A stretch of 64,000 nt of DNA from a virus, in the IMG/VR virus record IMGVR_UViG_3300028833_000004. One strand, 5' to 3'. The notes under the pieces were generated by a model that searched no databases, was not told the DNA's origin, and was given only the letters and a program-made list of their open reading frames with translations. Shown one piece after another: positions 148 through 54,892 of the stretch (position 1 is its first letter; the number at the start of each line of letters is the position of its first letter). Position numbers and translations under genes: made by a program.

Positions 148-188
148 AACCCCTATCGGAGAAATCCGATAGGGGTTATTTTTTTTTT
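148..188. terminator. Bidirectional rho-independent terminator at the convergent junction
   Basis: 13-bp perfect stem aacccctatcgga / tccgataggggtt with a gaaa loop, then a T-run on the plus strand. The same hairpin follows the TAA (187-189) of the last minus-strand gene. Confidence 0.8.
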
Positions 189-10800: not shown

Positions 10801-13800
10801 CTTTTTGCAACAAGTTTTTCAAAATAGTCAGGGTGTGTTTTTATATATGACATAGACTGATCCACACCATATTGAGTTCTATTCTTAGGTAAAATTTCCT
10901 CACCACCCTTATATTTAATATTAGTAACAAAAATAGCTCCATATTTATTTATTGGGCCTGATATATTAGGTCTTCCATCTTTGAACCATTCTTTAAATCC
11001 TTTTAATGACTCAAAGTAGTATGGTGTATCATTCTTAAGTCCTCGGATATTAGCTCTTTGCCACATCTATAAGATTTTATCGTCTTTATTTTTAGCTAAT
11101 TCTTGTGTACTTTTTAATAACCAAAAGTTTCCACCATCCCAAGTAATCTAGGTGGTTTTTAATTCGCGTTTTTGATCATGAATTTTCCAAATTGGCTAAG
11201 TGTGACATAATTCAAATGCGACCTATAAATCTGCGGGTGTTTTGATTAAAATATCCCTAACACCATCAGAATATCTCTCACCAACTGTTAAATTAAAATT
11301 AAGTTCTGTAATTTCTTCACGTTTAAATAATTCACTATTTTTAAAGAATTCAGATATAATTTCATCCTATGTTAATGGTATGAGATACTCTTTTTGATGA
11401 TCTTTTATATATTCATTAGCAAGTTTTATTATGTCCGAATGAGTATAAACAACTCCATTAATATCTTCATAAACACCAATAATTCCATTTGCTGGGTTTT
11501 GAACGACCGCTACACCATTAAATCTCTATTTTAATGAATCCTAATTCAGTTTAGTAACTAAACTTGAAGTTGCTAAATAAAATAACTACTAATTACTATA
11601 AGGTAATGTAGTAAATTGCCCAGAGGTTTTGGCAAATTCTTCCATCTATTTAAGCAATGTTTGAACAATTAACTCTGCATTACTTGCCACCGAGTTTGTC
11701 TATAATTGCTTAAGGAGTTCCTTTGCCATGTATTTATGAAATTCTGAATGATCTGGTGTATCCCATTTTTTAATAAATTTAGAAAAACTATCTTCTATAA
11801 TGGATCCCAAAATTTCATACATATTTTGAACGAGCTCAGAATTTTCACCATTAAAAGCAATAGCTGTTATAACCTAAGTTAAAGCAGGGATTTCAGAATC
11901 TTCACCTTCATGTGAATAATCCTACTAAATTCCATATCTTGAAGTGTTTATTTTTGTTGTAACTAATGGAGAATTTGTTCCAAATATACTTTTACGTGTA
12001 TTTAGAACACCCTAAGACTCTTTAGAAGACTCCTCATCAACTAATTTCATAACCAGCTTAGGTTTAATTTCATCGCTGGTGTCATATTCACTAATTAAAT
12101 CTGCGACTATATCATGTGAATCATCTGAAAATTCATATCCACTATTGTCAGATCTTTTATAACATTCAGCTTTACCAAATGCTTTCCATAAATCATATAC
12201 AGTATTAATTTTAAAACCTTCTGATTCTAACTGTAATCCTAAAGTCTTAGCAACCGCAAGGTCTGGAACTAAAGAATTATCATCTGTATAAGTCCAGGAA
12301 AATTTTATAGTTCCATTTTCAGGATTAACCTAAGTTTCACTTAAATGGGCCATTCGGCCATTAAATGAGTAATAAATATCATAACCTAATTCAATCTTAT
12401 TTTCTTGCCCGGTCTTCCAATTTTCAAGAAATTCCTATGTTATTGGCGCATTATACATTTTACTCATCAATGCATATCCATCCATACCATTCCACTAATT
12501 TTCATTAGTAGATGCGGAAGTACTTCTAATCCATGCATTATTCATTTCATAGTCAGCACATTTTAATTGTGTGAATCCGCCTAAATATGGTTGTAGTGCA
12601 ATAATTTTCAGGGAGCTTGCAACATGCTTTCCAAATGTACTTCTCTCTTCATAATGTCTACACATTCTAGTAGAAAACACAGCACCGTCATGTGCCTTCA
12701 TGACATCAGAATTTCCAAAGAAATTCTGTACAGGCATTATATTATGCTCCATATGAGCAATTTTAATTTTATGTGGAAGCCCATATTTATTACCCCCCAT
12801 AAAAGGTTCATATGAAGCTGGGCCAGAGTTATAACGTTTTTTACTTTTATTAAGTCTAACCCCTTCTTCGTTCGATATGTCTTTCTAAGTTTCTGATGAA
12901 TACTCTTTTAACTCTTCAGATGAGTGAACTGATGAGCTTTTATCATGTATCCAAGCATGCTTTAATGATACCTATAAATCAGCCTCTCTAGTTAAATATT
13001 TCATATAGTAATATTTTTTTAAAAAGGCATCTCTAAGTGGCTTTAATTTTTCATTTAATTCTCCTGCAAACGGGCTTTCTAACTATAAAAATTCAGATAT
13101 TAATTTAAGGCTGTCTGTTTCAGATCCTTCTTTATAAGGTAAATCAAATAGTTGACATAATCTAGCCTATTCTTCTTCACTAAGGGTGCTTAAAAAATCT
13201 GTTGGAAGTATTTTACATACTTTAAAATTATTAAGATCTTTAATAAATTCATTATATCCCTCATCTAAGACAGAATTAAAATAATCCTAATTATCGGCCA
13301 TTCTAATTTGTTTATATAATGAATTATTAATACCAAGTCTGAATGAATTATCACCTAATTTATGAATTGAAAAATGAACTTCTCGTAAGATGTTGATATC
13401 AGAATCTGGATAATTTTTCTGAAAATTTCCTAATAATTCTGATAATTTTTCCTAAGCAGCATATTCAGATGTAAATTCCCCAAGACCTTCTAAGTATTTG
13501 CCTAATGCCAATATATTACCAAACTGTTGACCAAAGATTTCCCCAGCGTCCTAGCATATTTTTGATTCAACTGCTTTGTAATAACTTTTATGCTAGTTAT
13601 ACCCAATATTTTTATAATCCTCTTCAGAAAGATTATACATTGTTGTATACCCCTCATCTGATTTAACTAAGCATTTCATGTTCCAAACGCCTTTAGCAAT
13701 TCTTATTTTATCAGAGTATGCTTCAATCTAATTTAGAAATATATTTTGTTTAACTATAGATTGCAAAAAGTCGCAGTACATACTAATTCCAGCCTAATCT

Positions 13801-15878
13801 GCAACCGAAACTTCTGGAGCCTAAAGAAATTTTGTAGAGTTTTTAGATTTAATTGCAACATCTCCACACATTACAATATGTGTAATATAGCCAGAATCTT
13901 TAGCTCTCTTTCCCCATGCAATAGTCTATCTTGTTAATTCAGGATACTTTACTAATAGATTTTCATTTTCAGAACCCTCCATCATCAGTTTAAAGTCTTC
14001 CAAATTTTTCTAAAAATCGCATATTGTATTATGTACTGACTCAGAGGCTAATTGGTCATTATTTTGATTTAAAACTTTTTCAGTTGTAGCAGAATTTAGG
14101 GAAATTACAACATCAGAAAATTCTATATAATCATCATTTCTTTTTAATTTTTTTATTATATTTTCAACTCCAGTTTTTAAAGCACTTTCTGACGGAATTT
14201 CTGAGGTATTTCCAAATTCCTAGATAACATATTTTCTATAAGCACGTAAGAATTTTCCCAATTTCTGGATATTATTTACGAATCTATCCTAAAGAAATTC
14301 ATTTTGTAAAGAAATTCCTGTAATAGTTTGAAACATAAACTACATTCTTTCCGAAAAAATATCGTTGAATGTATCAAATGTTCCAGAGGGGCCTATTTGA
14401 AATTCATCAAAAAATAAATATTTTTTACCCTCACTAAGTGTTCTAGTAAGTGCATTTCTAATACATGATATTACCCCCTATTTAGAATTCTGCCTTTCTA
14501 AAGGGGATTTCAATTCTGATGATCCCTCTGGTGTGATCATTTGATAAGCCATTGGTGAAGAGCTTAATCTTTGCACAACAGCAGCTGCTGCATTATCCAT
14601 CGAGGTGTCCGATCTTTCCTTTACAGATGAATTTTCACTTTTTTGTACCTTTATATAAGAATCTAGATATTTTTTTAATTCTGCTGAAAGAGCTTTGCAA
14701 GAAATCTCTGAAGCTCTATCTTGAATGTGGGGATTTTCTAGCACATTTATTAAAGCTTGAATTTTATCTTCAATACTTATTTCAGATTCTAAAACATCTA
14801 TTAAATCCTGTTCTTTATATCCTAAATCAGTTCTAGCTCGCTTTAATGTTAATAGTAATCTACTCATAAATTTAGTAGACATAGTTTCCCCATTTGGAAG
14901 CTCTATGGATTCAACAAAATCTTTTAATAAATTAGATAGTCGTTTTTCTGCATCTATATCTGAAAAGTTATCAGCAAATGATCCAGGTAAATCTTTAGTA
15001 TTTTCTTTAATATATTTATCTGGAATGTATGCTAACTATCCAAAGTAATTTTTATTAACTTTAATGGATCCGTTAGTTAAATCTTCAACAACTTGATCAA
15101 AATTCTATAATATATAAAAAGCTGCTATTGGATTTATTAAATTTTTTCTGGTTTGAGTATTTTTTAATTCCTAGATAGGCTAGAAAATTTCTCCCCTATT
15201 TTTTAATTCTTTACTATAAATATAGTTCCAGAATGTATCTAGCACCATTTTATAATTTTCTAAACTTTTCTAAGTATTAGAAGAAGACAGCTAAATTCCA
15301 AACATTACAGGAAGTTTCTACTAATCTTTTAGATATCTAATAATTGTGTTTAAAAGTTCCTGTCTATATTTTAATAATACATTAGATAAATCTTCTGTAG
15401 ATCTTACTATTGTTTTTCCCTATGAGTCCCAACGGATAAGCCCCTTTAATCTGTTTTTAGTATCTCTGTAAACTGCTTGATTTATAGAGTTAGAAAATAC
15501 GGGTATAAAACTTGATGAACTGTTTTTTGTATTAAAAAAATCTCCTGGATTCGGTACATGAATATCGTTCAACTATTTTTTAATGTTAATAGCTGTTGGT
15601 TTTATTACCATACATAAATCCTTAGAAATCATTTCATTTATTTCATCTAATGTATCCTGCAACTTCTATCTAATATTAATATCCGTAGATGCATCAATAG
15701 CCATCTAAATTAGATATTTTTTTTCCTGAGTAGTATATACAACCCAATCAAATATCTAATCATTTTTAAATTGGGAGATAAGTGTATCATCTCCCAATTT
15801 TAACTTATTTAACCATTTCTAAGATGTCTCAGTTTTAAGTGTATTATTTTTAAAAAGTCTACAATATAATGTTCCCAT
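4821..15878 (-). CDS. Giant virion-associated RNA polymerase polyprotein (3,685 aa with TAG as sense), crAss-type DxDxD loop, HExxH motif near the C-terminus
   Basis: ATG 15876-15878 to TAA 4821-4823. All codons were inspected and only TAG interrupts the frame. Nine track ORFs (4821-5213 through 14478-14882) are same-frame fragments. GSDYDIDKAY (DYDID at 10209-10223) fits the metal-binding DxDxD of two-barrel RNAPs as described for crAss-like virion RNAP. LHEFTHL (HExxH) lies at 5256-5270. Confidence 0.75.
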
Positions 15879-15888
15879 ATTTATATTT

Positions 15889-18800
15889 TTAAGTAATATT
15901 CTAACAGAATTCCAAAGAATCCGCAAAATCCTCGATTATCTTCCTAATATCGTCTCTATCAAAATTACCCTAAATAAAACTACCAATTACAAACTATTTC
16001 TCATAAGCAAAATTAAATCCCAGTTCAATTACGCTTCTAATAAGTCCTCTATCAAGTTCAATAGTCTCACCATTAAAAGTAATTTGTGCGGGATCTGTAA
16101 GTATATAATTCTATAAATGAGTTATTACATTTACTAATGGGAGGTTGTAATACATACCTCCAAGCTACTTGCCAAAAGCCTTTATATATTCAATAACGTC
16201 AGATCCACTTAATGTACTTCCATCGGATATTTTAACCTGCGCATTTATTAGTACCTGTTCAAAAGCTTTTTCAAACTCCTCAATATTTTCAATTGAATCT
16301 CTAGTGTCCGGTACATCTTTAGAATCATTTATAATTTCCAGATTACCTTCATCTATTACAAAATTTGCATATTCATAACCCCTTTCAACAATTATTGATT
16401 CTGGGGGGAGATTTATAAGATCCTCTATTGGTAGTGATTCATAGGCAAACTCAGAAAGGTTTTTATTAATATACCTTAAAATAGGGTCTAAAATTAAGTC
16501 AAAATTGCCATTAGTAATACATGTATTTGCTAGATCAAATTGTATTGCTTTTCCAGTGGCTTCAGCTGTATTTTTCTATCTTTCAAACTAGGCTATCTAT
16601 AACAAAGAGTCTACAAATGTATCTATTATATTTTTCTATAACCCTGATTCTCTTAGTGCTTCCTTTAATTTCTCTTTTAAAGATATGCCAGGCGTAGTTT
16701 CACCCGTAGATACAAATTGATCAAATTCATTTAATATCTATTTATATTCCGGATTTTTAACAGCGTGTAATAATAAATTTAATAGTTTGCGATGTCCATA
16801 AAAACCTAAGGTATGTTGACCCGAAACTGCTGGTCTAGATTTCCACCAAATTCCATTATTTTTTTCAACACTGTCTCGATAGTATGTTAATATATCTGGA
16901 ATTATTGACTTAACCTATATAGGAATTTTTTCACCTATAGGGCTTTCTAAGATTATCCAATATTGATCAGAAAAGTATTTAAGTGATTTTTTTCCCTCTT
17001 TTGTAAAAGGAAGTCCTCTATATTGCTCAAACCATTTTAAGAATTCATCTCCCTATGTATTAATGGTATGTTTAGTGGGATCCCAAACATCTTTTTGAGA
17101 ATATTGAAATCCCATATCGATATAATTAGCCAAAGTAGTTCTTTTATATTTAAACTGATCTCCAAGTAATTCATAATTCAACCCAAGCGTTGGATCGATA
17201 ACTAAATCTCGCATACCAGTCTACTAATAAAAAGCTGAATTAGTGGATACGTTCCCCATAAAAAAGCTTTTGGAACTTTTACTAATTAATTCAGATTTTC
17301 TTTTTGTTCCTTTCTGACGTAGTCTAACTACTAATGGAACTCTTCCACTATCAAAATACTCAGAATAAAGATCTTTAATTAATTCACTACTTGTTCCATC
17401 TTCATCCTTTGTATATCCAATTCGCATAACAGTAAATGGGAATATTTTAATTTCCCCATCATCTGTCATCTATAGTGTGACTGTTGCCCTACATATATTT
17501 TCTGGAATTGGATCTTTATCATTTATTTTTTCAAAAGCCCAGTCCTAGGTTTTATTATATTTATGAATTAATATTTCAAAATCTGAACCACGGACAGCTA
17601 AATCCTTTCTTAAAAAGAGTATAAAAGATTTAAATGATTTTAAAAAATCCTTACCAGAACGTAAAGCTAAATTTTTATCTATATTAAATCCTTTAGGGAG
17701 TTTATCTGCCTCTAGTAACATTTTAAAATGACCTACCTCAGAATTAGAACTCCAGGCCTCCAACCATTTTTTATTATAACCTTTAATTTTTTTAATGGTT
17801 TCTCTAGATTCACCTGTTCTAATATACCATCCCTAACCTATAAAGAATTTGGAATCGTTTCCCCACTATTTAGAAATTCTTCGACTTATAGTTGATCTAG
17901 TTTTTTCTTTCGGAGTCTCAGATGATTCTTCAGATATTTTTTCTGAAGGTGTTTTAGATTCTTCTTCTGTCATATCGTCAATAACAGTCGAATCTAATTC
18001 TTCTAATTCAATATTAGTAAGCTCTTTATCTGGAATTTTTTTTACCTTTTCTGGAGACTCTTCTAAATCTTCTGTTTTTAATTTTGGTATTGTATTATCT
18101 AAATCTTCTAATTTTGGAAGTATTTGTTTGAGTGTCTCAGATAATTCCTATCCAAAATTTGATGAGATTTTACTAAATAACGCCACATTTTTAACAACAT
18201 GATCTTTATTTAAATTAACTGATTCAAATAAATCATCAGAATCAGCCTGAATAATTAAAACACCATTTTTACCACGTGTTATTGTTGTGTAGCATTTTGT
18301 AGCATTAGTCTCTGTTGAATGTATATCTGAATTTTTAGCCTTCTACTTATATGAAATAACATAATCATATTCAGCGCCCTATAAATCTTTCAATGTTTTT
18401 ATAACAAATTTGTCAGAGCCTAACCCAAAATTCTAAAGATCTGCTTTTACCGCATCTGAATTATCATAACTATCAACAACTACTACAATACTTCCAGATA
18501 TATTATCTATAACATTCTAAATTTCATCATTATCCTATGAATAATGGATTCCTAAAAATCCATTTGATTTATTTATAGTATATTCAAAAGATATTTCTGA
18601 TAAACCATCTAGTAAATCCCTAGAAGTATTACTATCCCACGCAGCATCACGTTCAATATCTTGGTTACCAATGCCATAATGTTTACTATCTAAAGTAGAT
18701 TTTAAAATAGAGGTGTTATAATTCATCGCTTGATTGTGAAACCTCCATCCGCCAGATAATTTTGGAATTGATATTTTTCCCAAATATCTTAATCCACCAG

Positions 18801-21800
18801 TAAATATTGCATTATTAAATTCAATAGTATCCGATTGCTAAGTTTCATCCCCCAAAGCTATAATAATACCCTTATTTTCAGACACCATTTTCTATAAAAC
18901 AGCATATTCAAATGCATTTAATAAAGTACATTCGTCTAAAATAAAAGCGGTTTTATCAGAATTAATATAATGAATTTCTGGAAGTGTGTTAAACGTTTTT
19001 CTAGTTGGCTGGGAATCTTCTAAAATTTTACCATCTACTATAGGTAAATGACATACAAATTCAATAACAGTTTTATCCCCATCTTTTATCTACACTATAA
19101 TCTAGAGATCGTCTGGATTAGCTCTATTAATGGAGAAGCCATCTGGAAGTTCTACTTCTTCGCCCTTAGATAATTTAGAGATATTACTATTAATAAATTC
19201 CTCGGCCATCTTTTCATACTCTTTATAATTTTTAGAGTATGTTTCAAATTTTTCATCTGAAATTAATTTATGTAACTATTTAGAAGTTACACTTTCATCA
19301 GAATCACCTCCAAATAATTTATATAACTCATCAGTTTTCTCCTAAGCTAGTGCTGTTGTTGCTATTTTATATCCCTTAGATTTTAAATAATCTTTTAATA
19401 AACTAGATATAAAGGTCTTTCCAGCGCCACCCTCACCAAATAAAAAGATCATTCTCTCCATTTGATCCTTTATCCAGAGCTCTCCTGGGTTATTATTGAT
19501 CTGATTATTAATATATCTATTAACTGAGTCAAATATTTTTGAGTTTTCTATATAAGTAATTATCCATTCCAGTGCCTCGAGTTGATCCTATCTAGGATAA
19601 AAGTTTGGATTTTTATCAAGAACATCTTTCTATATTATAGTCTATACACTTTTTGGATCTATGGCTAAATACCCAGAGAATTTATACGCCCAATAATATC
19701 CGTTAATTATTGAATTTCCAGCCGCGTCTTCCTGATAAATGTTAGTAATATCTGAATCGAAATCACATAAATTTATCCCAGAATCTGTTTTAGAAATTAA
19801 ATTACCTGATATTAATTCTGATGGCATGATAATATTCTATATTATCCAATCATCCAAATCATCAGAACCTGCCTGAGATACATATTTTTCTCTAAGTGCC
19901 CTAATATTTTTACAGATTTCCTATTCACATTTTAAAATAAATTCTAATTGTGCACTCTCATCATCTGGAATATCCTGATTAATAAGCTCTTCATCGAGAA
20001 GATAATAATCCTTTTTATCAGGCAAAGTTAGCTTAGGTCTTCCTTTATAAAAAGAAACTTTACTTTTTATAAATTTTTTCTTCTAAGCCTTAAATACCTG
20101 TAATTTATTAGCAGTTAATTCCGAACTAATCTGTTTTAAATCACTCAAACGGAACTGAATATCGCTAATCATTGCTTTAACCATTCTAGCATCTTCAGGA
20201 TCAATTAAACCTAATAAATCTTTTTTATGTGTAGGATCTCCATATGCATTCAGATACTAAACACGCAACTGATTAAATCCATACATTCTCTAGTCCTTCT
20301 CTAAATCATATGAAGTCATTCCTTCTATGACTGCCATCATAACTTTTAAAGTTTGTATGGTGGAATCAATTGCTTCAAGTTCAGAATCTGAAAAATTGGT
20401 TTTTTCAAAGTCGCCTTCTCCACGCTAAACTTTTAATTCCTAATCAATAAAATATTTACCTAAAGTTGATCCTTTTGTTGTTCCATTTATAGCTAAATAT
20501 AATTTATCAAAAACCCCCAATAATGGATTTTTTACCGCGGTTGAGCTAGTTACCTTAGTATTAAATTTGTTTATTTGATCAAATTCAGGCTGAAGATATT
20601 CTTTAAGAGCTTGCCCAACACTTGTTCCAACTGGATAAGTTATTCCAATTATTTTAGAAAATTGTTCAAGTTCTTCTGGTGTATTTACTGGTTGGTAATC
20701 TTTACTTAACATCTCTCCGAATCTTTGTAAACCATCTAATGATTTTAACGATAGATCTTGGAAATCTGATTCATATGCTACAAATTCATCCTCTCTAGCC
20801 TCAAAAAAAGGTCTTACTTTATTTAACTTATCAATCAACTATATCTTAATAATCTACTCTATACGATCTAAAATACCCTATTCAACAGCATCATCATCCG
20901 CAATATAATCGTATAAATCATTGAACTATATTCCAGATATTTTAGATAAGTCTGCGTTTGAATTATAATTAATAACTCCAGAACGAATGTCTACAGTTGA
21001 GTCAGAAGTGTCTGCAAGTTCATTTATTCTATGTCTATATATAGAAGACTCGTCTCCATATCTCTCATTTACACGGGCAATTAGATTTTTAACAGACTCT
21101 TCATTAAGTTCAACAAATCTTGCCGCAAAAGCTTCAGAATTAATTAATTCTGCCAAAACTTTTTTCTATTCATCATTAAATCCTACAAATTCAATAACTC
21201 CATTATCTATGAGGGCTTTAGCCCAGTTAGTCTACATTCTCTATTTAAGAGTAAATGCATTAGGATGGGCTTTTATATAAGATACTAGATTTTTAGTTCT
21301 AAATTCAGAATTTACTTTGTCAAGTTTGTCCTTAGCTGATGAAACATTTGCATCATACTAAATATCCTATTTTAACTCTTGACGAGCAGAAAGAAGCTAT
21401 TTCTCTTTTTCATCATCATTCCAGGAGTCAATTAAATCTTTATCAAAAAAATGGTCTATAGGCAATTGATCTATATATTCAGATAAAGTTTCTGTATTAA
21501 TTATAGACTTTTCAATAGCTTTTATTACAGCATATTTATGCTCCATATCAACAAACTTTGATAACTCTGGTGAGATTCTTTGTTGTATAGAATCAAATAC
21601 ATTGACCATTAAATCCACATATTTAACAAACTCTGGAGTAACTTCCCCAAATTTATCGTGTGTATATAACTTATATAATTCATCAACCTTAGCTTTGGTT
21701 AATTTATCTGGATCTGGAGAATCGTCTTCTAACTAATCATAACTTTTATTAACTCCATCCTTATTTAAAACATTTTGATAAAAAGATTCTTTATCCAAAC

Positions 21801-24279
21801 CTAATAAAGCTTGACCCAAGAATGGGTTAGATATTAAAGTTGCACCTGAATATGAATCTACATAAGCTTCTCCAGAGAAAAATTGTCTAGAATATTTTAA
21901 GGCCTATTCAAATTTCTTTTTATTGAGTGCTTTTGTATTTTTAGGTTTTTTATCCTCATTTTCAACGGATTCAACTGATTCAGAAATATTAGGGTCTTTA
22001 GAATCTTTTGATTCTTCGGACTCTTCCAAAGAACCTGCGTAAACATCATAGGCATCTTTTAAATCAATTAAGCTTGACTTAAAACGCTATTTAATATATT
22101 CCTCAACCTTTGTATCCTTCCAATCAGCTTTAAATTGTTGGATAAAAATATTTTTAACATCCTCATTTAAATTTTCAATTCCAGTTCCAACTAAAGAATC
22201 TTTAATAACCTTATCAATAGTTTCAACATGTTTAATAGCAGCATCAACAATCATGTCTGCCTAAGTTATCTGCCCGTCCGCCTTCAATTCATGAACCTAC
22301 CCGTCTTCACCTACAATACCTGTAGCAGCTCTCTTATTACTTAATAATTTTCTACACTTCTATAATTCATTTATAAGTTCATCTTTTCGACCATAAAATA
22401 GTGCATCTATGATATCATAATCTTTTTCTAGATCGAATCTAGACTTATAATTAGGATCTATGAATGTTCTTCTAATCCAAGGATCTAAGTGCATTTCCTA
22501 TACTGAAAATAAACCACCACCTAAAGCACCACCAATAAGAGTCTATAAATATCTTGAGGCTCCTTCTTTACTAAATACATTCTACCATCCTCCAAAAGAT
22601 CCCTATTTACCTGTAAAACCTAACCATGAAAGTGTATCAATAATTCCTTTAATGCTATCTTGAACAACTTCTTCAGAAACCTCTTCTACACCTTCAACTA
22701 CCATATTTTTCCAAATATCCTCCCCAGAGGCTCTAAAAGCATCGTCTAGCCAATTTAAAGTCTTTGCTTTAAATGCTGATATACTATTTAATAAAGACTG
22801 TTTAGATTTTGTGGCAACTGCCTATTCAACGTCTTTCTAAATATCTGAATATAAGGATTTGGCAATTTTTATAATAGGCCTTCTTGTAATTTCTCGATCA
22901 TATCCGGTGGTAGCATCTAAAAACCATGTTCCAAGTCCATTGGCCGTTTCATTAAAGTTCATTATTCCAAACAATGCTGAGGCACTTAATAAACTGGCAA
23001 TTCCAGCCGTTCTTTTATCATACCCGCTTTTAATTGCATCATTATAAACATCAGACACTGATATAAGACCCATATAACCTAAACTAAACGCTTTAGCCGC
23101 CTTATTCATTGATTCGGCATACTTTTTATAACGTTCAAAATCTTGGGCGGTTTTTAATTCCTTCGGAACTTTATATAAAAAATTGGCAAGGGATGCTGCA
23201 GCTCTCTATTGATATAACTGTCCAAATATATCTGAAAGCATATTTCCTATTCCTTCAGCGGAAAATAAATTCTACTTACCTTTCTAAGACATACTTGGAT
23301 TAAACTTTCTAAACCAATTCTCTAAAGATGTCGCACCATTATATATAGCAGATGAATCATCTCCTAAAAAGACACTTTCCATTGATTTATAAAAAGTAGG
23401 CATTACTGAAGCTAATCCCCAAAGGGCCTAAAATGCTCCATAATAAGCATTAAATCCAGGAATCATATAAGGTAATACAGAAGCTATAGTCTTCATAGCA
23501 ACTCCGCCTAATGATTTTTCATATCCATCAGAATCGAAGAAATCCATTTTATTTAATGTTGTTCCTTCTTTAGTCAGAACGTCCTATACAGCTACAACTT
23601 CTTTATCCAAAATTTCCCTATTGCCAAGTAATTCAGTAAAGTATTGGCCATTCTCATCAGTAATAAATTCACCTTTGGCGTGGTATCCTTCCTCACCTGT
23701 TATAGGATTTTTCTAAAAACCGTCCTGATCATATTTAGCATAAATTAATGTTTCTCCAAATAAATTGGAAAATAATCCTCGACTTTCTGCGGAATCCTTG
23801 AGTCTGGTTCCAGTTACAGGATCATATATTTTACCCTTCTATGCAGCTTCCCATGGGGTTAATTTAGGTTCACTTTGGACATTTAAACCTATTATACCAG
23901 TGGACTGCTGAAGGGGATTGTTTTTTTCTACTTCTGGTTTATAAAGAACATCTTTAACCCTAGCCCCAAGCGGTTTATATCTGCTGGTCGGACTATATTC
24001 TAAATACTGACTTAAATTATCCACCAGATGATCATTATCTAACTAAAAATATCGCTGTTCAGCCAGAGTATAAATCTAATTAAATTCATCTTCTTTAAAG
24101 TTTCCCTATTCATCAGTAAAGGCTTTCTTTATAAATGGTTTGGATTTATATTCCTCCTTATCTAATAAAGCCGTATTATTAATATTTATATCATTCTATA
24201 AAAAATCAACTACGGTTGAACTGGGATCACTTAAAAGTGTTGCAACTAATATATCATTCGGTTTTTGAATAGTATCCAT
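15889..24279 (-). CDS. Giant protein (2,796 aa with TAG as sense): hydrophobic N-terminal third plus an SF1 (RecD/Pif1-like) P-loop helicase core
   Basis: ATG 24277-24279 to TAA 15889-15891. The frame was inspected codon by codon and only TAG interrupts it. Walker A GEGGAGKT at 19414-19437, Walker B FILDEC (DE at 18931-18936), motif III GDET[TAG] at 18838-18852. Hydrophobic stretches lie around 22500-23500. Confidence 0.75.
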
Positions 24280-24280
24280 A

Positions 24281-26149
24281 TTATTCCTAATTTAAAATAT
24301 CACTACTGCTATAGATTTTCTTCGTTGGGTTTCTCTAAGTCATTTCAGTAATCATGTCCTATTCTAATGTTTTTGGAGTCATATTGCTGCCATGCCCAGC
24401 ATATCTATAAGCGTCACCTGAAGCAAATTTATTAATTTTAATAAATATTGGAACTTTATAAATATCGTCCCACATTTGTTTACCATCAATAGATTTTATT
24501 CCAGTCTTCTTTGCTAAATTTTTATTATATATAGAATTGATAAGATTATCAGCATATTCTTCATCCTTACCTGATAATTCCTCAACTAAATAATTTGAGC
24601 CATCTATATTATCATCTATGGTATAGCCATAAGTCAATAAGAATCTACCAAGTCTATCTGTTTCTATTAATTGGTTTTGAGAATTATACATAGCATATGA
24701 ATGATGTGCAGCATGTATCTGATTTTTTTTATTTGGATCTGTAATTCCATTAACCTTAATCTCTTCTTCGGCTTCTGAAAATGCATAAAATCCAGGCCAA
24801 TCTATTTCACCATTCTCAAGTATAGGCATCCAAACTGCTGCAACAGGATCATTAGAATATGCTATATTTGTAAGCATTCCTTCACTAATTTTCTAATCAC
24901 CCATATATATTTTATCTTTTTCCAAATATTTTCCAACAGTTTCTGCCAATGCAACAGACATTGGTAAATTATAAACAGCATTTCCATTATCAGTAGTAAG
25001 AGCTGGAATTCTAACTCCTTGTACATTTAAAGAATATGCATTAGAATTTTTATTATCTGTGATTTTAAATACATCGCTATTTAAATCCCCATCAAAAAAC
25101 TGTTCTAATGGAGTCTGGTAAAAGGTTTTAGAACTACTAGAAGTTCCAGCAGTAGTTCCGGCAGCTTTATTAATTCCAGAATCATAATCTAAGGTTCTAG
25201 ATACAATAGTATCATTATTCATTACTAAGGCATTTGAAATTAAATCCAAAGCATAGTTCGAACCCTCTTCCCATTTACCTCCGTAAACTAAATTCCTAGC
25301 CATCAACTGCATAGTCATTTGTTTCGGAAGCATTTTATAGATGTAACTTAAAGCAGAATCAATATTCTTAGATTTAACTCTATCTTTTACTTTAAATAAA
25401 GCATCTGGCCCAATTTGCTACATTAATTGAGCCAACTCTTTCAATCCCTAATACTGACTCTCATTAGGCCGCTTTAATAATCCATTTTGAATTATTCCAC
25501 CTAATGTTTGATATGCTTCTGAAATATCATCGGCCGATCCAACTGATTGAATAATATCTTTAATATAATCCTAAATTTTTTCAATACCTATACTTCCACC
25601 AATTACAGTGATTGGATCCTCACTGTAAGCTAGTTGCGGATTGAATTGTCTATATTGAATTAATTCACCTATAGTTAAATATTGATACTTTTCTGGATCA
25701 TATTTAGAACCGTGTATTTTCTATATTTTTTGATCCTAATCAACTACATATAAATATCCTCTAGAATCTATTGCAACTTCGTCAAGGGCTTTATTAGCTT
25801 CTGCATTTTCAGCTGCCCCATCAAAAAATCCATTAGTTTTTATTATTCTATTTATCGCAGCCTATAGCATATAAACATCAGAACTCTTAATTCCACCATT
25901 AAAATCAGCGTTTCTCTCGAAGTCAGTCAATTTCTAAGAGAAAAGATCAACATCTACAGGAAGTCCCTCAGAATATAATTTTTTCATTAATTCTTTAGGA
26001 ATTAAATCCTAAGCTGAAGCTGAGCCTGAACCTGAATCTCCTCCGACAACCTAAGACTATCTAGCCTAAACAGCTAAATTTGATACAGGATTAACAGTAG
26101 ACGAATATAATAATCCACCAGCCTATAATTTATTTATATTTAATTTCAT
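24281..26149 (-). CDS. Hypothetical virion/cargo protein (622 aa with TAG as sense)
   Basis: ATG 26147-26149 (ATGA overlap with the upstream TGA) to TAA 24281-24283, one nt before the next ATG. Track ORFs 24359-24877 and 24893-25333 are same-frame fragments joined by TAG. Confidence 0.7.
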
Positions 26150-28011
26150 TTAAATATTGATTTTAATAAAATTAGAGTTTCTTTATCTATCTGTCCAAGA
26201 TCTCTTTCTAATTGTCTTTGGAGCAATTTAGAGGTTTCTAATTGACTTTTACTAACTCTTTCACGCTCCTTCTGACTAGCTGCAATCCATTTAGATAACC
26301 TGTCCCCCTAAACAACCTTACCACCAGATTTTTTATATGGGATTCTAAAATTACCCTAATCATCAAAGACTGATTTATAAGTACTTCTTCTATATTGTCC
26401 GGTGTACAAACCCTGATTATCAATATAATACGGAAAAATACCATTATGGAACTATGCCAAATCTCTAATTATTTGTAACTAACTTCTCCAATCGTTCTTA
26501 AGTCCTTCTAGTTCTTCTGCCCAATTTTTAGTTCTATAAGTATTTGATTGATCTCCCCACAAACGTTCATATACAGCTTCTTTAGCAGCCTCATCATCAC
26601 CAGTCATAATAGCTTTATCCGCATCTGATAAAGAAGCCATTCCTTCATCTCTATTAAAGCTATTTTTAAAAGCTTCATAAGCTTTTGACTTTTTATAATT
26701 CATCATATCAGCCTAAGTTAAATACAACTTACGCTCATCAATAGCTGCTTTTAGATTATTTAATTCCCTAGATCTAACAATATCATTAACATCAGCATCA
26801 TGTTTAAACTAACCATGATTAGTATACTTTCTCTCGCCGAACTGATTACGATTAGAGGCTATTTCAGCATTTAATTGCTTATCAGCTTCAATAATAGCAT
26901 TATTAGCAGCAGCATTGATCTAGTTGTTTTTATTTGCAACTTCGGCCTATCGCAATAGATTATTATCAATTACCTACTATTTTATTTGTGTGGACTCATT
27001 ATCTCCCTTCTACTATAACTATGCCTGATTATCCTATGTTTGCCGTGCAAATTCCAAACCCCCCTGATTTACAGCTAGCATGTTGTTTATATCATTAGAC
27101 TTATACTAACTTATATTAGCTAATACATTATCCAAAGTTTTCTACTATAATTGTCTGGTGACAAAATAGTTATACTTTTCAGAATTTAACCAGGGAGTCT
27201 CATAATGGGGATACTAAAACTTCTTTGAAAGACTATTATTTCTATAAGCTTTTAAAGTATTATTCAGATATTGCTAGGTAATAGGTGCCCAATCTGTCCA
27301 AATAGGTTTTTCTGCAGAGGCTTCATCATAAATTTCCTGTAATTTTTTAAGAGCTTTATCTTGGTCATATAATTCTTGACTTGGTGTTGTATTATTTCCA
27401 CCTAAAGTAGCACCAGTTGTTTCTTGATTTTTAGAAGGGTCTGCCTAAGTATTAGTATTCTACCCACTAATTCCAGCCTCTGTCTAGGCTGGGTTTCCAG
27501 GCTATGCTACAACTGTTGTCTAGACTGGAACCCATTTATTTTGAGTTGTATCAAAATAAATTTTTCCAGAATCTGTGTCTAGAGCTGACTCTGCAGAATT
27601 ATGTTTCTATGCTAAAGCAGTTAATAGAGCATTTCTCTACCATGTGGTTGGACCAAGATAATCCGATCTATCCTTAGAATATCCGAAGTATTCATTAATT
27701 CCTGTAGTGTTAAATAAATTATTCCAATTGGTATATCCAAGTTTATTTAATTCTTTACCCTTAAATAAATCTGGCTAAATTAACTTATTTAATGTATCGG
27801 CAGTTAGGCTTTTATATTTTTTGTTATCAATTAACCATTTATAAATAGTGCTGATGGGTCCATGATATGTATCCCAGGTATCTAAGGCTTTAGCTCTCAG
27901 ATCTGTATCATTTATAGCATCCTTACGCCACCTACCCTTCTAAATAGGAGCTGCTGGAGTCTAGAATTTCTAGACCCCAGATCCCATTAATTTTTCAAAA
28001 TTGTATTTCAT
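26146..28011 (-). CDS. Hypothetical protein (621 aa) with a Q-rich coiled-coil-like central tract very dense in TAG
   Basis: ATG 28009-28011 (ATGA overlap) to TGA 26146-26148 (ATGA overlap). The frame was inspected and only TAG interrupts it. About 11 TAG in about 100 codons at 26880-27180, mixed with CAA/CAG (..ARQT*DNQA*L**KGD..). Confidence 0.7.
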
Positions 28012-31000: not shown

Positions 31001-31490
31001 CTAAACGATCACCAAATGAAAATGATGATAAACCTTCACCAATTCCATTAGTTAAATCAAAGAATATATGCCTTTTATTTTCAGGTTGTTGAGTGGTTGA
31101 TGATCCCACACTAGCCTAAGGTTGAGCGGTGGTTCTTGATCTATTATAGTCGTACATTAATCGAGCTACATTTTGAGGCATATCCTTAGACCAAATAGAT
31201 GGTTCATAAGCTGCACCAATAGAATCATCATTATCAGCCCCATTAAAGTGCTCTACTGTTGATTTATAAAACTATTCTTGTGCTAATCTTTGTCTCTTTG
31301 CTCCCCTAAAAACATTGGAATATGGGGCAGATTTTGAATATTCTACTAATCCATCAAGATACTGTTGAACCGCTGCTCTATCCTCGTCTGTGGGGAGACT
31401 ATTTAGGAAATCAAGATACTTTTTCTACTCTTCCTCAAGTCTTTTTAATTCATCACCTTTTTTATATTTTTGTATCTAAGCCATAATCAT
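28008..31490 (-). CDS. Large protein (1,160 aa) with two Gly/Ala-rich hydrophobic segments; tape-measure or ejection-protein-like
   Basis: ATG 31488-31490 (alternative 31482-31484) to TGA 28008-28010. The frame was inspected. Segments GAMGVGAVAGATAAGIPTGGTVAPLGGLIGALGTGAGYILG (about 29860-29990) and the track ORF 29058-29351 peptide resemble glycine-zipper membrane segments. Confidence 0.65.
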
Positions 31491-48490: not shown

Positions 48491-48513
48491 GAACTAAGCT
48501 ATAACCATAAATA

Positions 48514-54178: not shown

Positions 54179-54892
54179 TTAATATACTAAAATTACATCA
54201 TTTCTTTTCTTATACATTATCTATCCAAATGTCTAAAATATAGTACATTCTGTATCTAATTTTACAAGATTATAAGCAGATGTATAATTGCAATAATTCT
54301 TATAAATGTTTCTAACAATAAATTGTTCACTATTCCATTTATTCATAGGTTGTGTTTTATAAAACTCATTAACCTTCTCATAAAATTCAATTAATGCTTC
54401 TTTATAACCAATACAACATCCTGCATTTAAATATCTGAATTTAGATGAGTGCTACCTAACAGGAGTATCTCCAAAATATCCGGGATAATTATTCTTAGAA
54501 GCATTGAATACTATACCAGCATTAAAAGATTTAAATTTCTCAATAAGACTATCCCAATTATCAATTACTACATCATATCCATCCAATATAAGAATATATT
54601 TAGTTTCTATTTCTTTCAATGCTTTTAATATACATTCTATTTTATAAGGATTAGACCACTTTTCTTCTCTAGGAATATAACAATTTATAATTGGTATATT
54701 ATTTTCTTTTAATTGCTAATATAATACGCATTTATTATCATCTGTCCAAATTGATAATATTGTAAGATCGTCTGGAGCCTAAGATAACTTATGACTCCAG
54801 ATGTCCTACATAAAATCATTAAATACTATAGAAGTACTTCCTTGAAAATGCGCTATATTAAACTTTTTATGGCTGCGATTGAGAAATTGCAT
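54179..54892 (-). CDS. Putative DxD glycosyltransferase (237 aa with TAG as sense)
   Basis: ATG 54890-54892 to TAA 54179-54181, one nt before the next ATG. The frame was inspected. YILILDGYDVVI (DxD-like) and RYLNAGCCIGYKEAL resemble the D-x-D and LNsGgfiG pair of lysyl-hydroxylase-type and viral glycosyltransferase domains, as recalled. Confidence 0.5.

What the first reader, a model, noticed from the sequence alone, without database searches (positions are those of the whole stretch)
18838..19437. SF1 helicase core embedded in a 2,796-aa membrane-associated virion-block protein
Within gene 15889-24279 the motifs ERMIFLFGEGGAGKTF (Walker A), AFILDECTLL (Walker B) and IIIALGDET[TAG] (motif III GDxxQ) occur in the order and spacing of RecD/Pif1-type helicases. 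The same polypeptide has long hydrophobic segments near its N-terminus. It sits between putative ejection proteins and the RNAP. A helicase or translocase fused into a presumably ejected giant protein is not something I know to be described for this phage group. It could help pull the genome in or remodel host DNA at the start of infection.
Basis: partly seen in the sequence, partly recalled or inferred. Interest (0 to 1): 0.7.

Follow-up and report, generated by a model that had tools for sequence, protein, structure and literature searches.

The report
Helicase inside giant crassvirus cargo-block protein
A 2,796-residue protein encoded next to the virion RNA polymerase of a stop-codon-recoded gut crAss-like (Zeta-group) phage contains a complete, strongly conserved RecD/Upf1-type (SF1B) helicase; public annotation already labels it "RecD-like" but nobody has studied it, and it may unwind incoming phage DNA for the injected polymerase.

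Summary
Gene 15889-24279 lies on the minus strand, has 73 in-frame TAG codons read as Gln, and encodes one 2,796-aa protein. A complete SF1B helicase core occupies aa ~1561-2013 (window 18241-19599), with the Q-motif and motifs I-VI. Support comes from Pfam (AAA_30, Viral_helicase1 above cut-off), a family profile against PDB (Upf1 2.7e-9, RecD 6e-7) and an AlphaFold model of a close relative (pLDDT 80.6), whose top 50 PDB fold matches I recognise as all SF1B.

The window is a Zeta-group crAss-like phage. The gene order is muzzle, DUF192, three unknowns, helicase giant, DxDxD virion RNAP, nuclease-bearing 1,544-aa protein. An exhaustive search found 107 clusters. 50 of 52 full-length giants carry the module, and the catalytic residues are invariant at ~21% identity. 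ΦcrAss001 and phi14:2 lack it.

It is not undescribed. The orthologue in phage Lera is listed as "RecD-like protein" in a 2025 supplementary table, and UniProt names a relative likewise. No analysis exists. "Membrane-associated" is weakly supported.

Best reading (inferred): a late-made virion cargo protein, co-ejected with the RNAP, that opens or translocates incoming DNA. The phi14:2 RNAP strongly prefers ssDNA templates. Rivals are a DNA-import motor, anti-defence or host-DNA attack with the nuclease, or a non-packaged late function.

The parts
15889..24279 (-). Giant gene, 2,796 aa, ATG 24277-24279, TAA 15889-15891, 73 in-frame TAG read as Gln
   Evidence: Orthologues of 2,682-2,971 aa under the standard, TAG or TGA-recoded codes
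22330..24279 (-). Conserved N-terminal module (aa 1-~650), no known domain. It includes moderately hydrophobic or Gly-rich segments at aa ~257-283, 424-442 and 577-593
   Evidence: Most conserved part of the protein. No Pfam or PDB match. It always co-occurs with the helicase in full-length relatives
18241..19599 (-). SF1B helicase core (aa ~1561-2013): RecA-like domains 1A and 2A with accessory insertions
   Evidence: Pfam AAA_30, Viral_helicase1, AAA_19; profile vs PDB Upf1 2.7e-9, RecD 6e-7, nsp13 2e-5; AF2 model of relative P0003 pLDDT 80.6 with Foldseek top hits that I recognise as all SF1B
19573..19596 (-). Q-motif candidate PRQDQLEA (Q1566 conserved 50/50)
19414..19437 (-). Motif I / Walker A GEGGAGKT (K1621 conserved 50/50)
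18970..19287 (-). Insertion in domain 1A between motifs Ia and II (aa ~1665-1770). In the model of the relative it is a long helix plus a four-stranded beta-sheet, at the position of the 1B/1C accessory domains of SF1B helicases
   Evidence: Alignment gaps; secondary structure of the model. The equivalence to 1B/1C is inferred from position only
18919..18948 (-). Motif II / Walker B AFILDECTLL (D1782, E1783 conserved 50/50)
18838..18855 (-). Motif III LGDET[TAG=Q]; the invariant Gln1814 is encoded by TAG 18838-18840
18733..18765 (-). Motif IV PKLSGGWRFHN (R1846 conserved 50/50)
18358..18393 (-). Motif V LKDL[TAG=Q]GAEYDYV; Gln1967 is encoded by TAG; G1968 conserved 50/50
18250..18294 (-). Motif VI CYTTITRGKNGVLII (R2002 conserved 50/50)
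4821..15878 (-). Downstream neighbour, 3,685 aa, crAss-type virion RNAP. The catalytic motif DYDID is at aa 1886-1890 (window 10209-10223). The gene starts 10 nt after the giant's stop
   Evidence: 'QGSDYDIDKAYTM' lines up with the DFDVD motif stretch 'SGSDFDVDKLYIM' of ΦcrAss001 gp50 (motif listing). Weak BLAST HSPs over and after the motif keep a consistent offset (403 and 419; E 0.65 and 0.18). Homologous to the neighbours in L001 and L004. Junction
187..4821 (-). Last gene of the trio, 1,544 aa: N-terminal PD-(D/E)XK-type exonuclease match, C-terminal region similar to phi14:2 gp65 (a virion RNAP-associated protein), strong C-terminal hydrophobic helix
   Evidence: phrog_298 E=1.4e-6; blastp to gp65 25% over 241 aa, E=1.1e-5 in a one-sequence search; KD 2.66 at aa 1443-1461; Lera orthologue listed as 'exonuclease V'
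24281..31490 (-). Three upstream genes (622, 621 and 1,160 aa), candidate cargo/ejection proteins. The 622-aa gene stops 1 nt before the giant's ATG
   Evidence: Conserved synteny in L001, L004, L010, L028, L030 and the P0016 and P0108 contigs. No Pfam or PHROG match. The 'cargo' role is inferred from position relative to ΦcrAss001 gp45/gp46
33738..38852 (-). Crassvirus muzzle protein (1,704 aa); anchors the block to the crassvirus tail/cargo region
   Evidence: Pfam crAss_MUZ 87.8 bits, E=7e-25, cut-off 27

Best explanation
The gene encodes a two-module giant protein of Zeta-group crAss-like phages: a conserved ~600-residue N-terminal module of unknown fold, then, after ~900 fast-evolving residues, an enzymatically competent SF1B (RecD/Dda/Upf1-class) helicase, then ~780 more divergent residues. 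It is made late, together with structural proteins, because it needs TAG suppression. It is co-transcribed or translationally coupled with the genes between the tail muzzle and the virion RNA polymerase. I propose that it is packaged as capsid cargo and ejected with the RNAP and the nuclease-bearing 1,544-aa protein. In the new host, the ATP-driven helicase would load on the entering linear phage DNA and translocate 5'->3' on one strand. That would expose single-stranded template for the crAss-type RNAP, which in phi14:2 transcribes ssDNA well and dsDNA poorly, and/or clear proteins and RNA-DNA hybrids from the template. SHOWN: the domain is a complete SF1B core; it is one gene; the catalytic residues are under strong purifying selection across >=50 lineages; the synteny with muzzle and RNAP is conserved; the gene is TAG-recoded. 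INFERRED: late expression, packaging and ejection, DNA rather than RNA as substrate, polarity, and functional coupling to the RNAP.
For: Helicase identity: Pfam AAA_30, Viral_helicase1 and AAA_19 in the window protein and in the two aligned orthologues, and again in full-length relatives. Profile vs PDB gives Upf1 2.7e-9 over motifs Q-VI with motif-to-motif alignment, RecD 6e-7 and nsp13 2e-5. The AF2 model of the closest representative has pLDDT 80.6 and pTM 0.81. Foldseek returns nsp13, RecD, RecD2, Upf1, Dda, Dna2, IGHMBP2 and Sen1, all at probability 1.00. Activity: in 50 cluster representatives at a median 21% identity, the Q-motif Q, Walker A K, DE, motif III Q, motif IV R, motif V G and motif VI R are each 50/50. 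One gene. Family architecture: 50 of 52 full-length homologues of the N-terminal module carry the helicase at the same position. Context: muzzle (crAss_MUZ, E=7e-25) and DUF192 lie upstream. The RNAP with DYDID lies immediately downstream, 10 nt away, and the upstream gene ends 1 nt before the ATG. The same order is found in MT835470, in L004 and in the P0016 and P0108 contigs; L010, L028 and L030 show the upstream genes and the giant only, because their downstream ORF runs off the locus; the Lera gene table gives the same order. Virion inference: the order giant -> RNAP -> w1544 mirrors phi14:2 g067 -> g066 -> g065, all three MS/MS-verified virion proteins, and w1544 is similar to gp65. ΦcrAss001 gp47/49/50 are in virions. 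Late expression: all 25 genes of the block carry in-frame TAG, and even two invariant catalytic Gln of the helicase are TAG. Yutin et al. 2021 report recoding mostly in late-gene regions. Coupling to the RNAP: phi14:2 gp66 transcribes ssDNA or denatured DNA efficiently but dsDNA poorly, and its closest structural relative QDE-1 needs the helicase QDE-3 and RPA. SF1B helicases that work on polymerases, such as Sen1-Pol II and nsp13-RdRp, are among the fold matches.
Against: There are no proteomic or expression data for this phage or any Zeta-group phage, so packaging is argued from gene position only. The giant has no detectable sequence or profile similarity to its positional equivalents gp47 (ΦcrAss001) or gp67 (phi14:2). 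Those cultured crassviruses have no such helicase (no Walker A in gp47, 49, 50, 65 or 67), yet they transcribe their early genes. So a helicase is not a general requirement of crAss-type RNAPs. Nothing distinguishes DNA from RNA as the substrate: Upf1, nsp13 and Sen1 act on RNA. The structure was predicted for a relative about 30% identical in the module, not for the window protein itself, because the tool refuses recoded sequences.
Confidence: 0.4

Rival explanations
1. Genome-internalisation motor. The ejected giant anchors at the cell envelope through its N-terminal module, and the SF1B motor reels the phage DNA into the cytoplasm. This is the reader's 'pull the genome in' idea, analogous to enzyme-driven DNA entry in T7 and N4.
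For: The protein has an ATP-driven translocase core with invariant catalytic residues. The conserved N-terminal module has positionally conserved, moderately hydrophobic or Gly-rich segments. The gene lies among genes that in ΦcrAss001 encode cargo proposed to form the trans-envelope channel. The crAss genome is large (>100 kb), and passive ejection may be incomplete (my own knowledge of T7 and N4 entry).
Against: Hydropathy is marginal: one segment reaches KD 1.46, and none reaches threshold in two orthologues. SF1B enzymes translocate on single strands, and pulling in duplex DNA would need a different mode. Other crassviruses of similar genome size manage without the domain.
Confidence: 0.15
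2. Anti-defence or host-takeover weapon, that is, a 'polyvalent protein' in the sense of Iyer et al. 2017. The ejected helicase acts with the PD-(D/E)XK nuclease of the 1,544-aa protein as a RecBCD/AddAB-like helicase-nuclease pair to degrade host DNA. Alternatively, like P1 DarB, it rides on the incoming DNA to protect it from restriction or from RecBCD.
For: The third gene of the conserved trio has an N-terminal exonuclease match (phrog_298) and is labelled 'exonuclease V' in Lera, next to the 'RecD-like protein'. RecD is among the best sequence and fold matches. Packaged giant proteins with helicase modules that act in early conflict are an established theme; DarB is a methylase-SF2 helicase.
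Against: The helicase and the nuclease are separated by the RNAP gene and are not fused. There is no RecB/AddA-like SF1A partner, and no methylase or other recognisable conflict domain in 16 diverse giants. Pfam does not confirm the nuclease in the window's protein. The helicase's constant partner across the family is the RNAP gene.
Confidence: 0.2
3. Not a virion protein. It is a late-expressed helicase that works in the producing cell, for example in late replication or recombination, in processing concatemers for packaging, or in loading the RNAP and cargo into procapsids. It merely happens to be encoded in the structural operon.
For: There is no direct evidence of packaging. There is no similarity to known virion proteins gp47 or gp67. 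TAG recoding shows only that it is made when the suppressor is active.
Against: The position is strictly conserved between muzzle/cargo-type genes and the virion RNAP in every relative examined. The gene is tightly packed in the operon, with 1-nt and 10-nt spacers. All three genes at the equivalent positions in phi14:2 are virion proteins. In the annotated crassvirus genomes I looked at, replication helicases sit in the separate replication block.
Confidence: 0.15
4. A degenerate or structural P-loop relic with no catalytic role.
For: Single-sequence Pfam scores are only just above threshold. No PHROG family matches.
Against: All seven motifs are present. Both RecA-like domains are modelled confidently. 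The catalytic residues are invariant in 50 lineages, while the rest of the protein has diverged to ~20% identity.
Confidence: 0.03

Closest known systems
'RecD-like protein' of Zeta crAss-like phage Lera (PV725988; Babkin et al. 2025, PMC12386605, Table S1 gene 191) and UniProt A0A8S5RTY8 'RecD-like protein [Siphoviridae sp. gcode 4]'
   Same: Same size (8,346 nt, about 2,781 aa, against 2,796 aa). Same strand logic, and the same place in an otherwise gene-for-gene matching block: MCP ... muzzle, DUF192, unknown genes, RecD-like, RNAP pieces, 'exonuclease V'. Stop-codon recoded. The UniProt entry is the best structural match to the family model (E=3.7e-24, TM 0.64).
   Different: Lera recodes TGA, and the window recodes TAG. 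I could not compare the sequences directly because the record is not in the collections. The label appears only in a table. The paper's main text never mentions the protein, and no paper in the library pairs 'RecD-like' with 'crAss-like'.
SF1B helicases RecD / RecD2 / Dda / Pif1 and the Upf1-like group (Upf1, nsp13, Sen1, IGHMBP2, Dna2)
   Same: Motifs Q and I-VI align one to one. The fold matches have probability 1.00. There is an accessory insertion in domain 1A at the place of the 1B/1C domains.
   Different: Those are stand-alone enzymes of roughly 400-1,100 residues, or subunits or domains of replication, repair or RNA-surveillance machines. Here the core is buried about 1,560 residues into a protein of about 2,800 residues with no other recognisable domain. 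Sequence identity is only 10-15%, and TM-scores are 0.3-0.4. No specific subfamily can be assigned.
RNAP-associated virion giants of cultured crassviruses: ΦcrAss001 gp47/gp49 and phi14:2 gp67/gp65
   Same: Same genomic position relative to the muzzle, cargo genes and RNAP. Large size. w1544 is similar to gp65. The RNAP catalytic motif is conserved.
   Different: gp47, gp49, gp50, gp65 and gp67 have no Walker A. Neither the helicase nor the N-terminal profile finds anything in them (best 4 bits, against 96-112 bits for a positive control). hhalign finds no similarity. phi14:2 gp65 is reported to carry a zincin-like protease instead.
Polyvalent proteins of phages and conjugative elements (Iyer, Burroughs, Anand, de Souza, Aravind 2017, PMC5512222), archetype P1 DarB
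   Same: A giant multidomain protein encoded with late or packaging genes, proposed to be packaged and delivered with the DNA to act in the first minutes of invasion. It contains a helicase module. The N4 virion RNAP is in the same conceptual class.
   Different: DarB-type proteins carry an SF2 (SWI2/SNF2-like) helicase fused to an adenine methylase. SF1 (UvrD-like, SF1A) helicases are reported only in a few actinomycete plasmid proteins. SF1B modules and crAss-like phages are not mentioned. No methylase or other conflict domain is found here.
QDE-1 / QDE-3 / RPA of Neurospora, and poxvirus virion helicases/ATPases packaged with the viral RNAP (the poxvirus case is from my own knowledge and was not checked here)
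   Same: A two-barrel RNAP related to the crAss enzyme depends on a DNA helicase and an ssDNA-binding protein to make RNA from DNA. This is the functional logic I propose.
   Different: QDE-3 is a RecQ (SF2) helicase, a separate cellular protein, and is not virion-delivered. Any parallel is functional, not evolutionary.

Membership tests
Superfamily 1 helicases (core of two RecA-like domains) | Walker A (motif I) GxxxxGK[ST] and Walker B (motif II) DExx in domain 1A | tested here: met
   GEGGAGKT aa 1615-1622 and LDEC aa 1781-1784. K, D and E are 50/50 in the family.
Superfamily 1 helicases (core of two RecA-like domains) | Motifs III (GDxxQ), IV, V (QGxE) and VI (TRxxxG, arginine finger) in the canonical order, i.e. 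a second RecA-like domain | tested here: met
   All are present and collinear, and they align motif to motif with Upf1. Viral_helicase1 matches the C-terminal half at 25.9 bits against a cut-off of 21. Both domains are modelled at pLDDT ~80-95 in relative P0003.
Superfamily 1 helicases (core of two RecA-like domains) | Significant profile or fold similarity to solved SF1 helicases | tested here: met
   hmmsearch vs PDB: Upf1 2.7e-9, RecD 6e-7. Foldseek: E down to 4e-9, probability 1.00.
SF1B subgroup (RecD/Dda/Pif1 and Upf1-like; 5'->3' translocases) | Closer in sequence and fold to SF1B than to SF1A (UvrD/Rep/PcrA) | tested here: met
   I recognise all 50 top Foldseek PDB hits as SF1B, with no UvrD, Rep or PcrA among them. 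In the sequence search, SF1A-type HelD and helicase IV score only 0.01-0.02 against 1e-9 to 1e-7 for Upf1 and RecD. The Pfam families hit are AAA_30, UvrD_C_2 and AAA_12.
SF1B subgroup (RecD/Dda/Pif1 and Upf1-like; 5'->3' translocases) | 5'->3' translocation polarity on single-stranded nucleic acid; ATP-dependent unwinding | not testable with these tools
   Requires biochemistry. Polarity is inferred from subgroup membership only.
   PF05970 PIF1 scores only 15.8 bits against a cut-off of 25.9. The sequence match to RecD covers only the N-terminal ~80 profile positions. No RecB/RecC-like genes lie in the block. 'RecD-like' is acceptable as a description of class, not of orthology.
Zeta-group crAss-like giant 'RecD-like protein' family | Conserved N-terminal ~600-aa module plus an SF1B module ~1,400-2,100 residues in, in a protein of ~2,400-3,500 aa | tested here: met
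   The window protein has both. 50 of 52 full-length homologues share the layout.
Zeta-group crAss-like giant 'RecD-like protein' family | Genomic position: after the ~620-aa gene downstream of the crAss muzzle, immediately before the DxDxD RNAP gene | tested here: met
   Window. Relatives.
Crassvirus virion cargo / RNAP-associated proteins (ΦcrAss001 gp45-gp50, phi14:2 gp65-gp67) | Presence in purified virions | not testable with these tools
   No proteomics exists for any Zeta-group phage in the sources I read. This is inferred from synteny.
Crassvirus virion cargo / RNAP-associated proteins (ΦcrAss001 gp45-gp50, phi14:2 gp65-gp67) | Sequence or profile homology to gp47 or gp67 | tested here: not met
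   blastp, hmmsearch --max and hhalign all find nothing.
Polyvalent proteins (Iyer et al. 2017) | Several unrelated effector domains in one polypeptide encoded with packaging or late genes | tested here: inconclusive
   The late/structural context is met. Only one recognisable enzymatic domain is found in 16 diverse members, and the other ~2,300 residues are unassigned.
   One weak segment (KD 1.46), not above threshold in L001 or L004. Positionally conserved segments score KD 1.0-1.3. No dedicated TM predictor was available.

The most novel reading that the evidence does not exclude
Zeta-group crassviruses deliver a helicase together with their virion RNA polymerase. The ejected SF1B motor would be the missing factor that converts incoming duplex DNA into the single-stranded template that crAss-type (QDE-1-like) RNAPs prefer. 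Together with the nuclease-bearing third protein, it would form a self-contained injected 'transcription-start machine'. As far as I know, this would be the first phage shown to inject a helicase that serves its own virion RNAP. It would also offer an experimental handle on how crAss RNAPs initiate on dsDNA, which the phi14:2 work left open.
Probability: 0.3. Interest if true: 0.75.

Novelty: new member of a known kind. Interest (0 to 1): 0.45.

Why it matters
CrAss-like phages are the dominant viruses of the human gut, and how their injected RNA polymerase starts transcription on double-stranded DNA is unresolved: the only characterised enzyme works well on single strands. A whole branch of these phages (at least 50 sequence clusters at 50% identity, on contigs of 12-176 kb, using three different genetic codes) keeps an intact helicase motor in the gene right next to that polymerase. 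This points to a concrete, testable partner. Express the helicase module, test ATPase and unwinding activity, and ask whether it lets the cognate RNAP transcribe duplex DNA. If the protein is packaged, it also extends the 'polyvalent protein' repertoire of injected enzymes to SF1B helicases. For annotation, giant recoded genes such as this one break into fragments under the standard code and are largely invisible to word-indexed protein searches, so a conserved enzymatic domain has gone essentially unexamined.

Tried and rejected
1. Plus-strand reading of the interval: full of stops. The gene is on the minus strand.
2. Standard-code ORF calling gives only fragments of 81-172 aa. TGA recoding does not help either.
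3. PHROGs: no family for any part of the giant. NCBIfam: nothing relevant.
4. Single-sequence phmmer against PDB: only a marginal nsp13 hit. A 3-sequence profile is still weak. Seven sequences were needed.
5. tblastn of three different helicase modules against 50,697 GenBank phage records found either nothing or only the two unannotated MT8354xx records.
6. All three word-indexed protein searches found essentially nothing, whereas the exhaustive search found 107 clusters. The earlier negatives were a sensitivity artefact, not rarity.
7. A single-protein IMG/VR scan found nothing. The alignment-based scan found 28 loci.
I worked around this with a TAG-free 122-aa stretch and with substrings of library proteins.
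9. The single-sequence AF2 model was useless (pLDDT 36).
10. Homology of the giant to ΦcrAss001 gp47 or phi14:2 gp67 was sought by blastp, HMM and hhalign and not found.
11. The RNAP segment finds nothing in PDB or PHROGs. Its identity rests on the motif, collinearity and synteny.
12. Gubaphage was considered as the clade and dropped: its genomes are ~80 kb and no RNAP block is described.
13. The p-crAssphage and Lera records are not in the collections, so Intestiviridae giants were not tested.
14. Pfam finds nothing in w1544, w621 or w622.
15. Cluster look-up gives no source names.


Full report
OBSERVATION. The interval 18838-19437 lies inside a minus-strand gene; the plus strand is full of stops. 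Translated on the minus strand, 15889-24279 gives 2,796 codons interrupted only by TAG (73 times), with no TGA and a single terminal TAA. Reading TAG as sense raises ORF coverage of the 64-kb window from 13.7 kb to 69.6 kb (summed over ORFs of at least 150 codons, which overlap). All 25 genes of the block contain in-frame TAG. Downstream I found motif IV (PKLSGGWRFHN), motif V (LKDL-Q-GAEYDYV) and motif VI (CYTTITRGKNGVLII), and upstream a Q-motif candidate (PRQDQLEA). The full core is aa ~1561-2013, window 18241-19599.

TAG MEANS GLN. The invariant glutamines of motif III (Q1814) and motif V (Q1967) are TAG codons. At the window's TAG columns, Gln is the commonest residue in orthologues (21-22%, against a 3.9% background and 13-23% at CAA/CAG-encoded Gln columns). 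TAG is the majority Gln codon of this gene (73 against 60 CAA+CAG). The helicase therefore cannot be made without suppression. No tRNA gene lies in the window.

IS IT A HELICASE? On the single sequence, Pfam gives AAA_30 at 30.3 bits (cut-off 27) on domain 1A and Viral_helicase1 at 25.9 bits (cut-off 21) on motifs V-VI. AAA_19 is just below its cut-off, and PIF1 is far below. Orthologues in MT835470 (standard code, 2,967 aa) and MT835492 (TAG-recoded, with a frameshift in the record) carry the same motifs at ~20-25% identity. All three sequences hit AAA_30, AAA_19 and Viral_helicase1. A seven-member profile finds yeast Upf1 at E=2.7e-9 over profile positions 52-412, with every motif aligned to its counterpart. 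It also finds E. coli RecD at 6e-7 and nsp13 at 2e-5. SF1A-type proteins are marginal. The structure tool refuses recoded sequences. I therefore modelled the module of the closest library relative (P0003, about 30% identical in the module) with a 24-sequence alignment, which gave pLDDT 80.6 and pTM 0.81. The top 50 Foldseek PDB matches include nsp13, RecD, RecD2, SLFN11, Upf1, Dda, Dna2, IGHMBP2 and Sen1. I recognise all 50 as SF1B, and no UvrD, Rep or PcrA is among them. TM-scores are modest (0.3-0.4) because of insertions and domain orientation. The model shows a helix plus a four-stranded sheet inserted between motifs Ia and II, at the position of the SF1B 1B/1C accessory domains (the equivalence is inferred).

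ONE GENE OR TWO? It is one gene. There is no TAA or TGA in the frame. Standard-code relatives have uninterrupted ORFs of 2,860-2,971 aa with the module ~1,400-1,700 residues in. The TGA-recoded lineage has a 2,682-aa protein with 21 in-frame TGA.

WHAT PHAGE, WHAT CONTEXT? The capsid protein matches only two unannotated human-gut records in GenBank phages. The upstream 1,704-aa protein is a crassvirus muzzle protein (Pfam crAss_MUZ, 87.8 bits, E=7e-25), followed by a DUF192 gene. The downstream 3,685-aa protein carries 'QGSDYDIDKAYTM'. This lines up with the DFDVD motif stretch 'SGSDFDVDKLYIM' of ΦcrAss001 gp50 (motif listing). Weak BLAST HSPs over and after the motif keep a consistent offset (403 and 419 residues; E 0.65 and 0.18). 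The motif has the Ile at position 4 that Drobysheva et al. describe as typical of crAss RNAPs. The order muzzle - 413 aa - DUF192 - 1,160 - 621 - 622 - giant - RNAP - 1,544 aa matches, gene for gene, the table of the Zeta crAss-like phage Lera. The mix of standard, TAG and TGA codes among close relatives is what Yutin et al. 2021 report for the Zeta group. In Lera the orthologue (8,346 nt) is listed as 'RecD-like protein' and the last gene as 'exonuclease V'. Neither is mentioned in that paper's text. No paper in the library pairs 'RecD-like' with 'crAss-like'. BFVD's best match to my model is UniProt 'RecD-like protein [Siphoviridae sp. gcode 4]' (E=3.7e-24). So the domain has been noticed by annotation but not analysed.

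HOW WIDESPREAD, HOW CONSERVED? Word-indexed searches found nothing. An exhaustive phmmer search with a TAG-free 122-aa stretch of the N-terminal module found 107 clusters, 52 of them 2,023-3,548 aa long, always matching at residues ~355-510. With filters off, 50 of the 52 carry the complete helicase module; the other two are weak, repetitive matches. Aligned to the HMM, the 50 modules are a median 21% identical to the window's. Even so, the Q-motif Q, Walker A K, motif II D and E, motif III G and Q, motif IV R, motif V G and motif VI R are each 50/50. In a full-length alignment of 16 diverse giants, invariant columns occur only in the N-terminal ~600 residues and in the helicase core. SF1-helicase families are the only Pfam hits. 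IMG/VR holds 28 loci on 69-176-kb contigs. A family member also sits on a 44.5-kb contig binned into a Candidatus Dojkabacteria MAG. The layout muzzle ... ~620 aa - giant - RNAP (3,200-3,600 aa) - ~1,550 aa recurs in a recoded and in a divergent standard-code member and in L004.

DO OTHER CRASSVIRALES HAVE IT? Not the two cultured Steigviridae I could test. ΦcrAss001 gp47, gp49 and gp50 and phi14:2 gp65 and gp67 have no Walker A. The helicase and N-terminal profiles (hmmsearch --max) score at most 4 bits against every ORF of at least 80 aa in ΦcrAss001 40-72 kb and in the whole phi14:2 genome. An independent positive control scores 96 and 112 bits. hhalign finds no similarity between the N-terminal module and gp47 or gp67. 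p-crAssphage was not available. BFVD lists chunks of giant proteins annotated 'DNA helicase' in crAss-like cr50_1 and cr118_1 at weaker similarity, which I could not examine.

MECHANISM. These points are shown: a catalytically intact SF1B motor, one polypeptide, strict synteny with the virion RNAP, tight operon packing (1-nt and 10-nt spacers), and dependence on TAG suppression. The rest is inferred, as follows.
(i) Late expression: Yutin et al. 2021 find recoding mostly in late-gene regions.
(ii) Packaging and ejection: the trio giant-RNAP-w1544 mirrors phi14:2 g067-g066-g065, all MS/MS-verified virion proteins. w1544 is similar to gp65 (25% over 241 aa, E=1e-5 in a one-sequence search). ΦcrAss001 gp47/49/50 are virion cargo.
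(iii) Function: phi14:2 gp66 transcribes ssDNA or denatured DNA efficiently but dsDNA poorly. Its structural relative QDE-1 needs the helicase QDE-3 and RPA. SF1B helicases that act on polymerases (Sen1-Pol II, nsp13-RdRp) are among the fold matches.
I therefore favour an ejected helicase that opens or clears the incoming DNA for the RNAP (overall confidence ~0.4). The component estimates are: helicase real and active ~0.95, single gene ~0.95, packaged ~0.6, coupled to transcription ~0.35-0.4. The rivals are a DNA-import motor (0.15), an anti-defence or host-DNA-attack role with the PD-(D/E)XK protein in the manner of polyvalent proteins such as P1 DarB (0.2), a non-packaged late function (0.15), and an inactive relic (0.03). 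The main counter-argument to my preferred reading is that cultured crassviruses transcribe their early genes without any such helicase.

'MEMBRANE-ASSOCIATED'. Only aa 424-442 reach a Kyte-Doolittle mean of 1.46, and this segment is not above threshold in two orthologues. Segments at ~257-283 and ~580-610 are conserved in position but score only 1.0-1.3. The claim is not established. By contrast, w1544 has a strong C-terminal hydrophobic helix (2.66), as does ΦcrAss001 gp49 more weakly.

VERDICT. The feature is a conserved hallmark of Zeta-group crAss-like phages. It is already labelled 'RecD-like' in a 2025 supplementary table and in UniProt, so the window holds a new member of a known but uncharacterised kind. 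What is new here: (1) the module is invariant across at least 50 lineages and always paired with a conserved N-terminal module and the RNAP gene; (2) it is absent from the cultured Steigviridae; (3) its catalytic glutamines are TAG-encoded; (4) a specific, testable link can be drawn to the ssDNA preference of crAss RNAPs.

Noticed in passing
window 187-4821 (-): The 1,544-aa protein after the RNAP has three notable features: an N-terminal PD-(D/E)XK-type exonuclease match (phrog_298, E=1.4e-6; 'GRADGIFF...ILDFKTS...YLQLELY'), a C-terminal region similar to phi14:2 gp65, the MS-verified virion 'RNAP associated protein' (25% over 241 aa, E=1.1e-5 in a one-sequence search), and a strong hydrophobic helix at aa 1443-1461 (KD 2.66). 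Pfam finds nothing. Lera's orthologue is labelled 'exonuclease V'. It may be an ejected nuclease.
   Followed up: partly
L032 1561-10476 (JANWZV010000004.1, MAG Candidatus Dojkabacteria SKYG111): A 2,971-aa standard-code family member (N-terminal module 8e-16, helicase 2e-5, all motifs present) sits on a 44.5-kb, 31.5% GC contig binned as a CPR bacterium. It is either a crAss-like phage contig mis-binned into the MAG, or a hint that relatives infect hosts outside Bacteroidota.
   Followed up: partly
window, all genes; e.g. 18838-18840 and 18379-18381: TAG is used as Gln in all 25 genes (1 to 93 per gene), including two invariant catalytic Gln of the helicase. It is the majority Gln codon in the three giants but occurs only once in the major capsid gene (47099-48508) and once each in three other genes. 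No suppressor tRNA gene lies in the window. The uneven density could reflect expression level or timing.
   Followed up: partly
L004 13926-19637: In the TGA-recoded relative, the RNAP ORF ends at the residue that aligns with the window's DYDID motif (w3685 aa 1827-1888 aligns to L004 aa 1836-1897 of 1,904), and a 251-aa ORF follows. This fits the disrupted Zeta RNAP genes described by Yutin et al. 2021 and Lera's homing endonuclease between RNAP pieces. The window's RNAP gene is uninterrupted (3,685 aa).
   Followed up: no
L002 about 16200 (MT835492.1): The giant gene of this 'UNVERIFIED' GenBank record changes frame about 1,400-1,480 codons in, just before the helicase module, which continues intact in the +2 frame. 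This could be an assembly indel or a programmed frameshift.
   Followed up: no
BFVD hits A0A7M1RUN7_4 (uncultured phage cr50_1), A0A7M1RVD7_4 (cr118_1), A0A8S5MJ87_1 (CrAss-like virus sp. ctcfK29): Chunks of very long proteins annotated 'DNA helicase' in other crAss-like genomes resemble the model at E~1e-8. Helicase-bearing giants may exist in further crAss-like groups, or these may be replication proteins with inteins.
   Followed up: no
window 51910-54177, 54867-59324, 59337-63788 (-): A 755-aa protein is made of BspA-type leucine-rich repeats ('TSITIPNSVTSIG...'). A 1,485-aa protein has dozens of 'SHAEG(x)TTASG' repeats. A 1,483-aa fibre-like protein has a C-terminal LRR-like region. These are probably receptor-binding or tail-fibre proteins. 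Between them lie a possible NAD-binding dehydrogenase (51043-51894) and a possible glycosyltransferase (54179-54892); both calls are my reading of the sequences and were not tested.
   Followed up: no
method: The word-indexed search of 5.8 billion proteins returned nothing for this family in three attempts. The exhaustive HMMER search of representatives returned 107 clusters from a 122-aa query. Negative results from the indexed search are unreliable for fast-evolving phage giants.
   Followed up: yes
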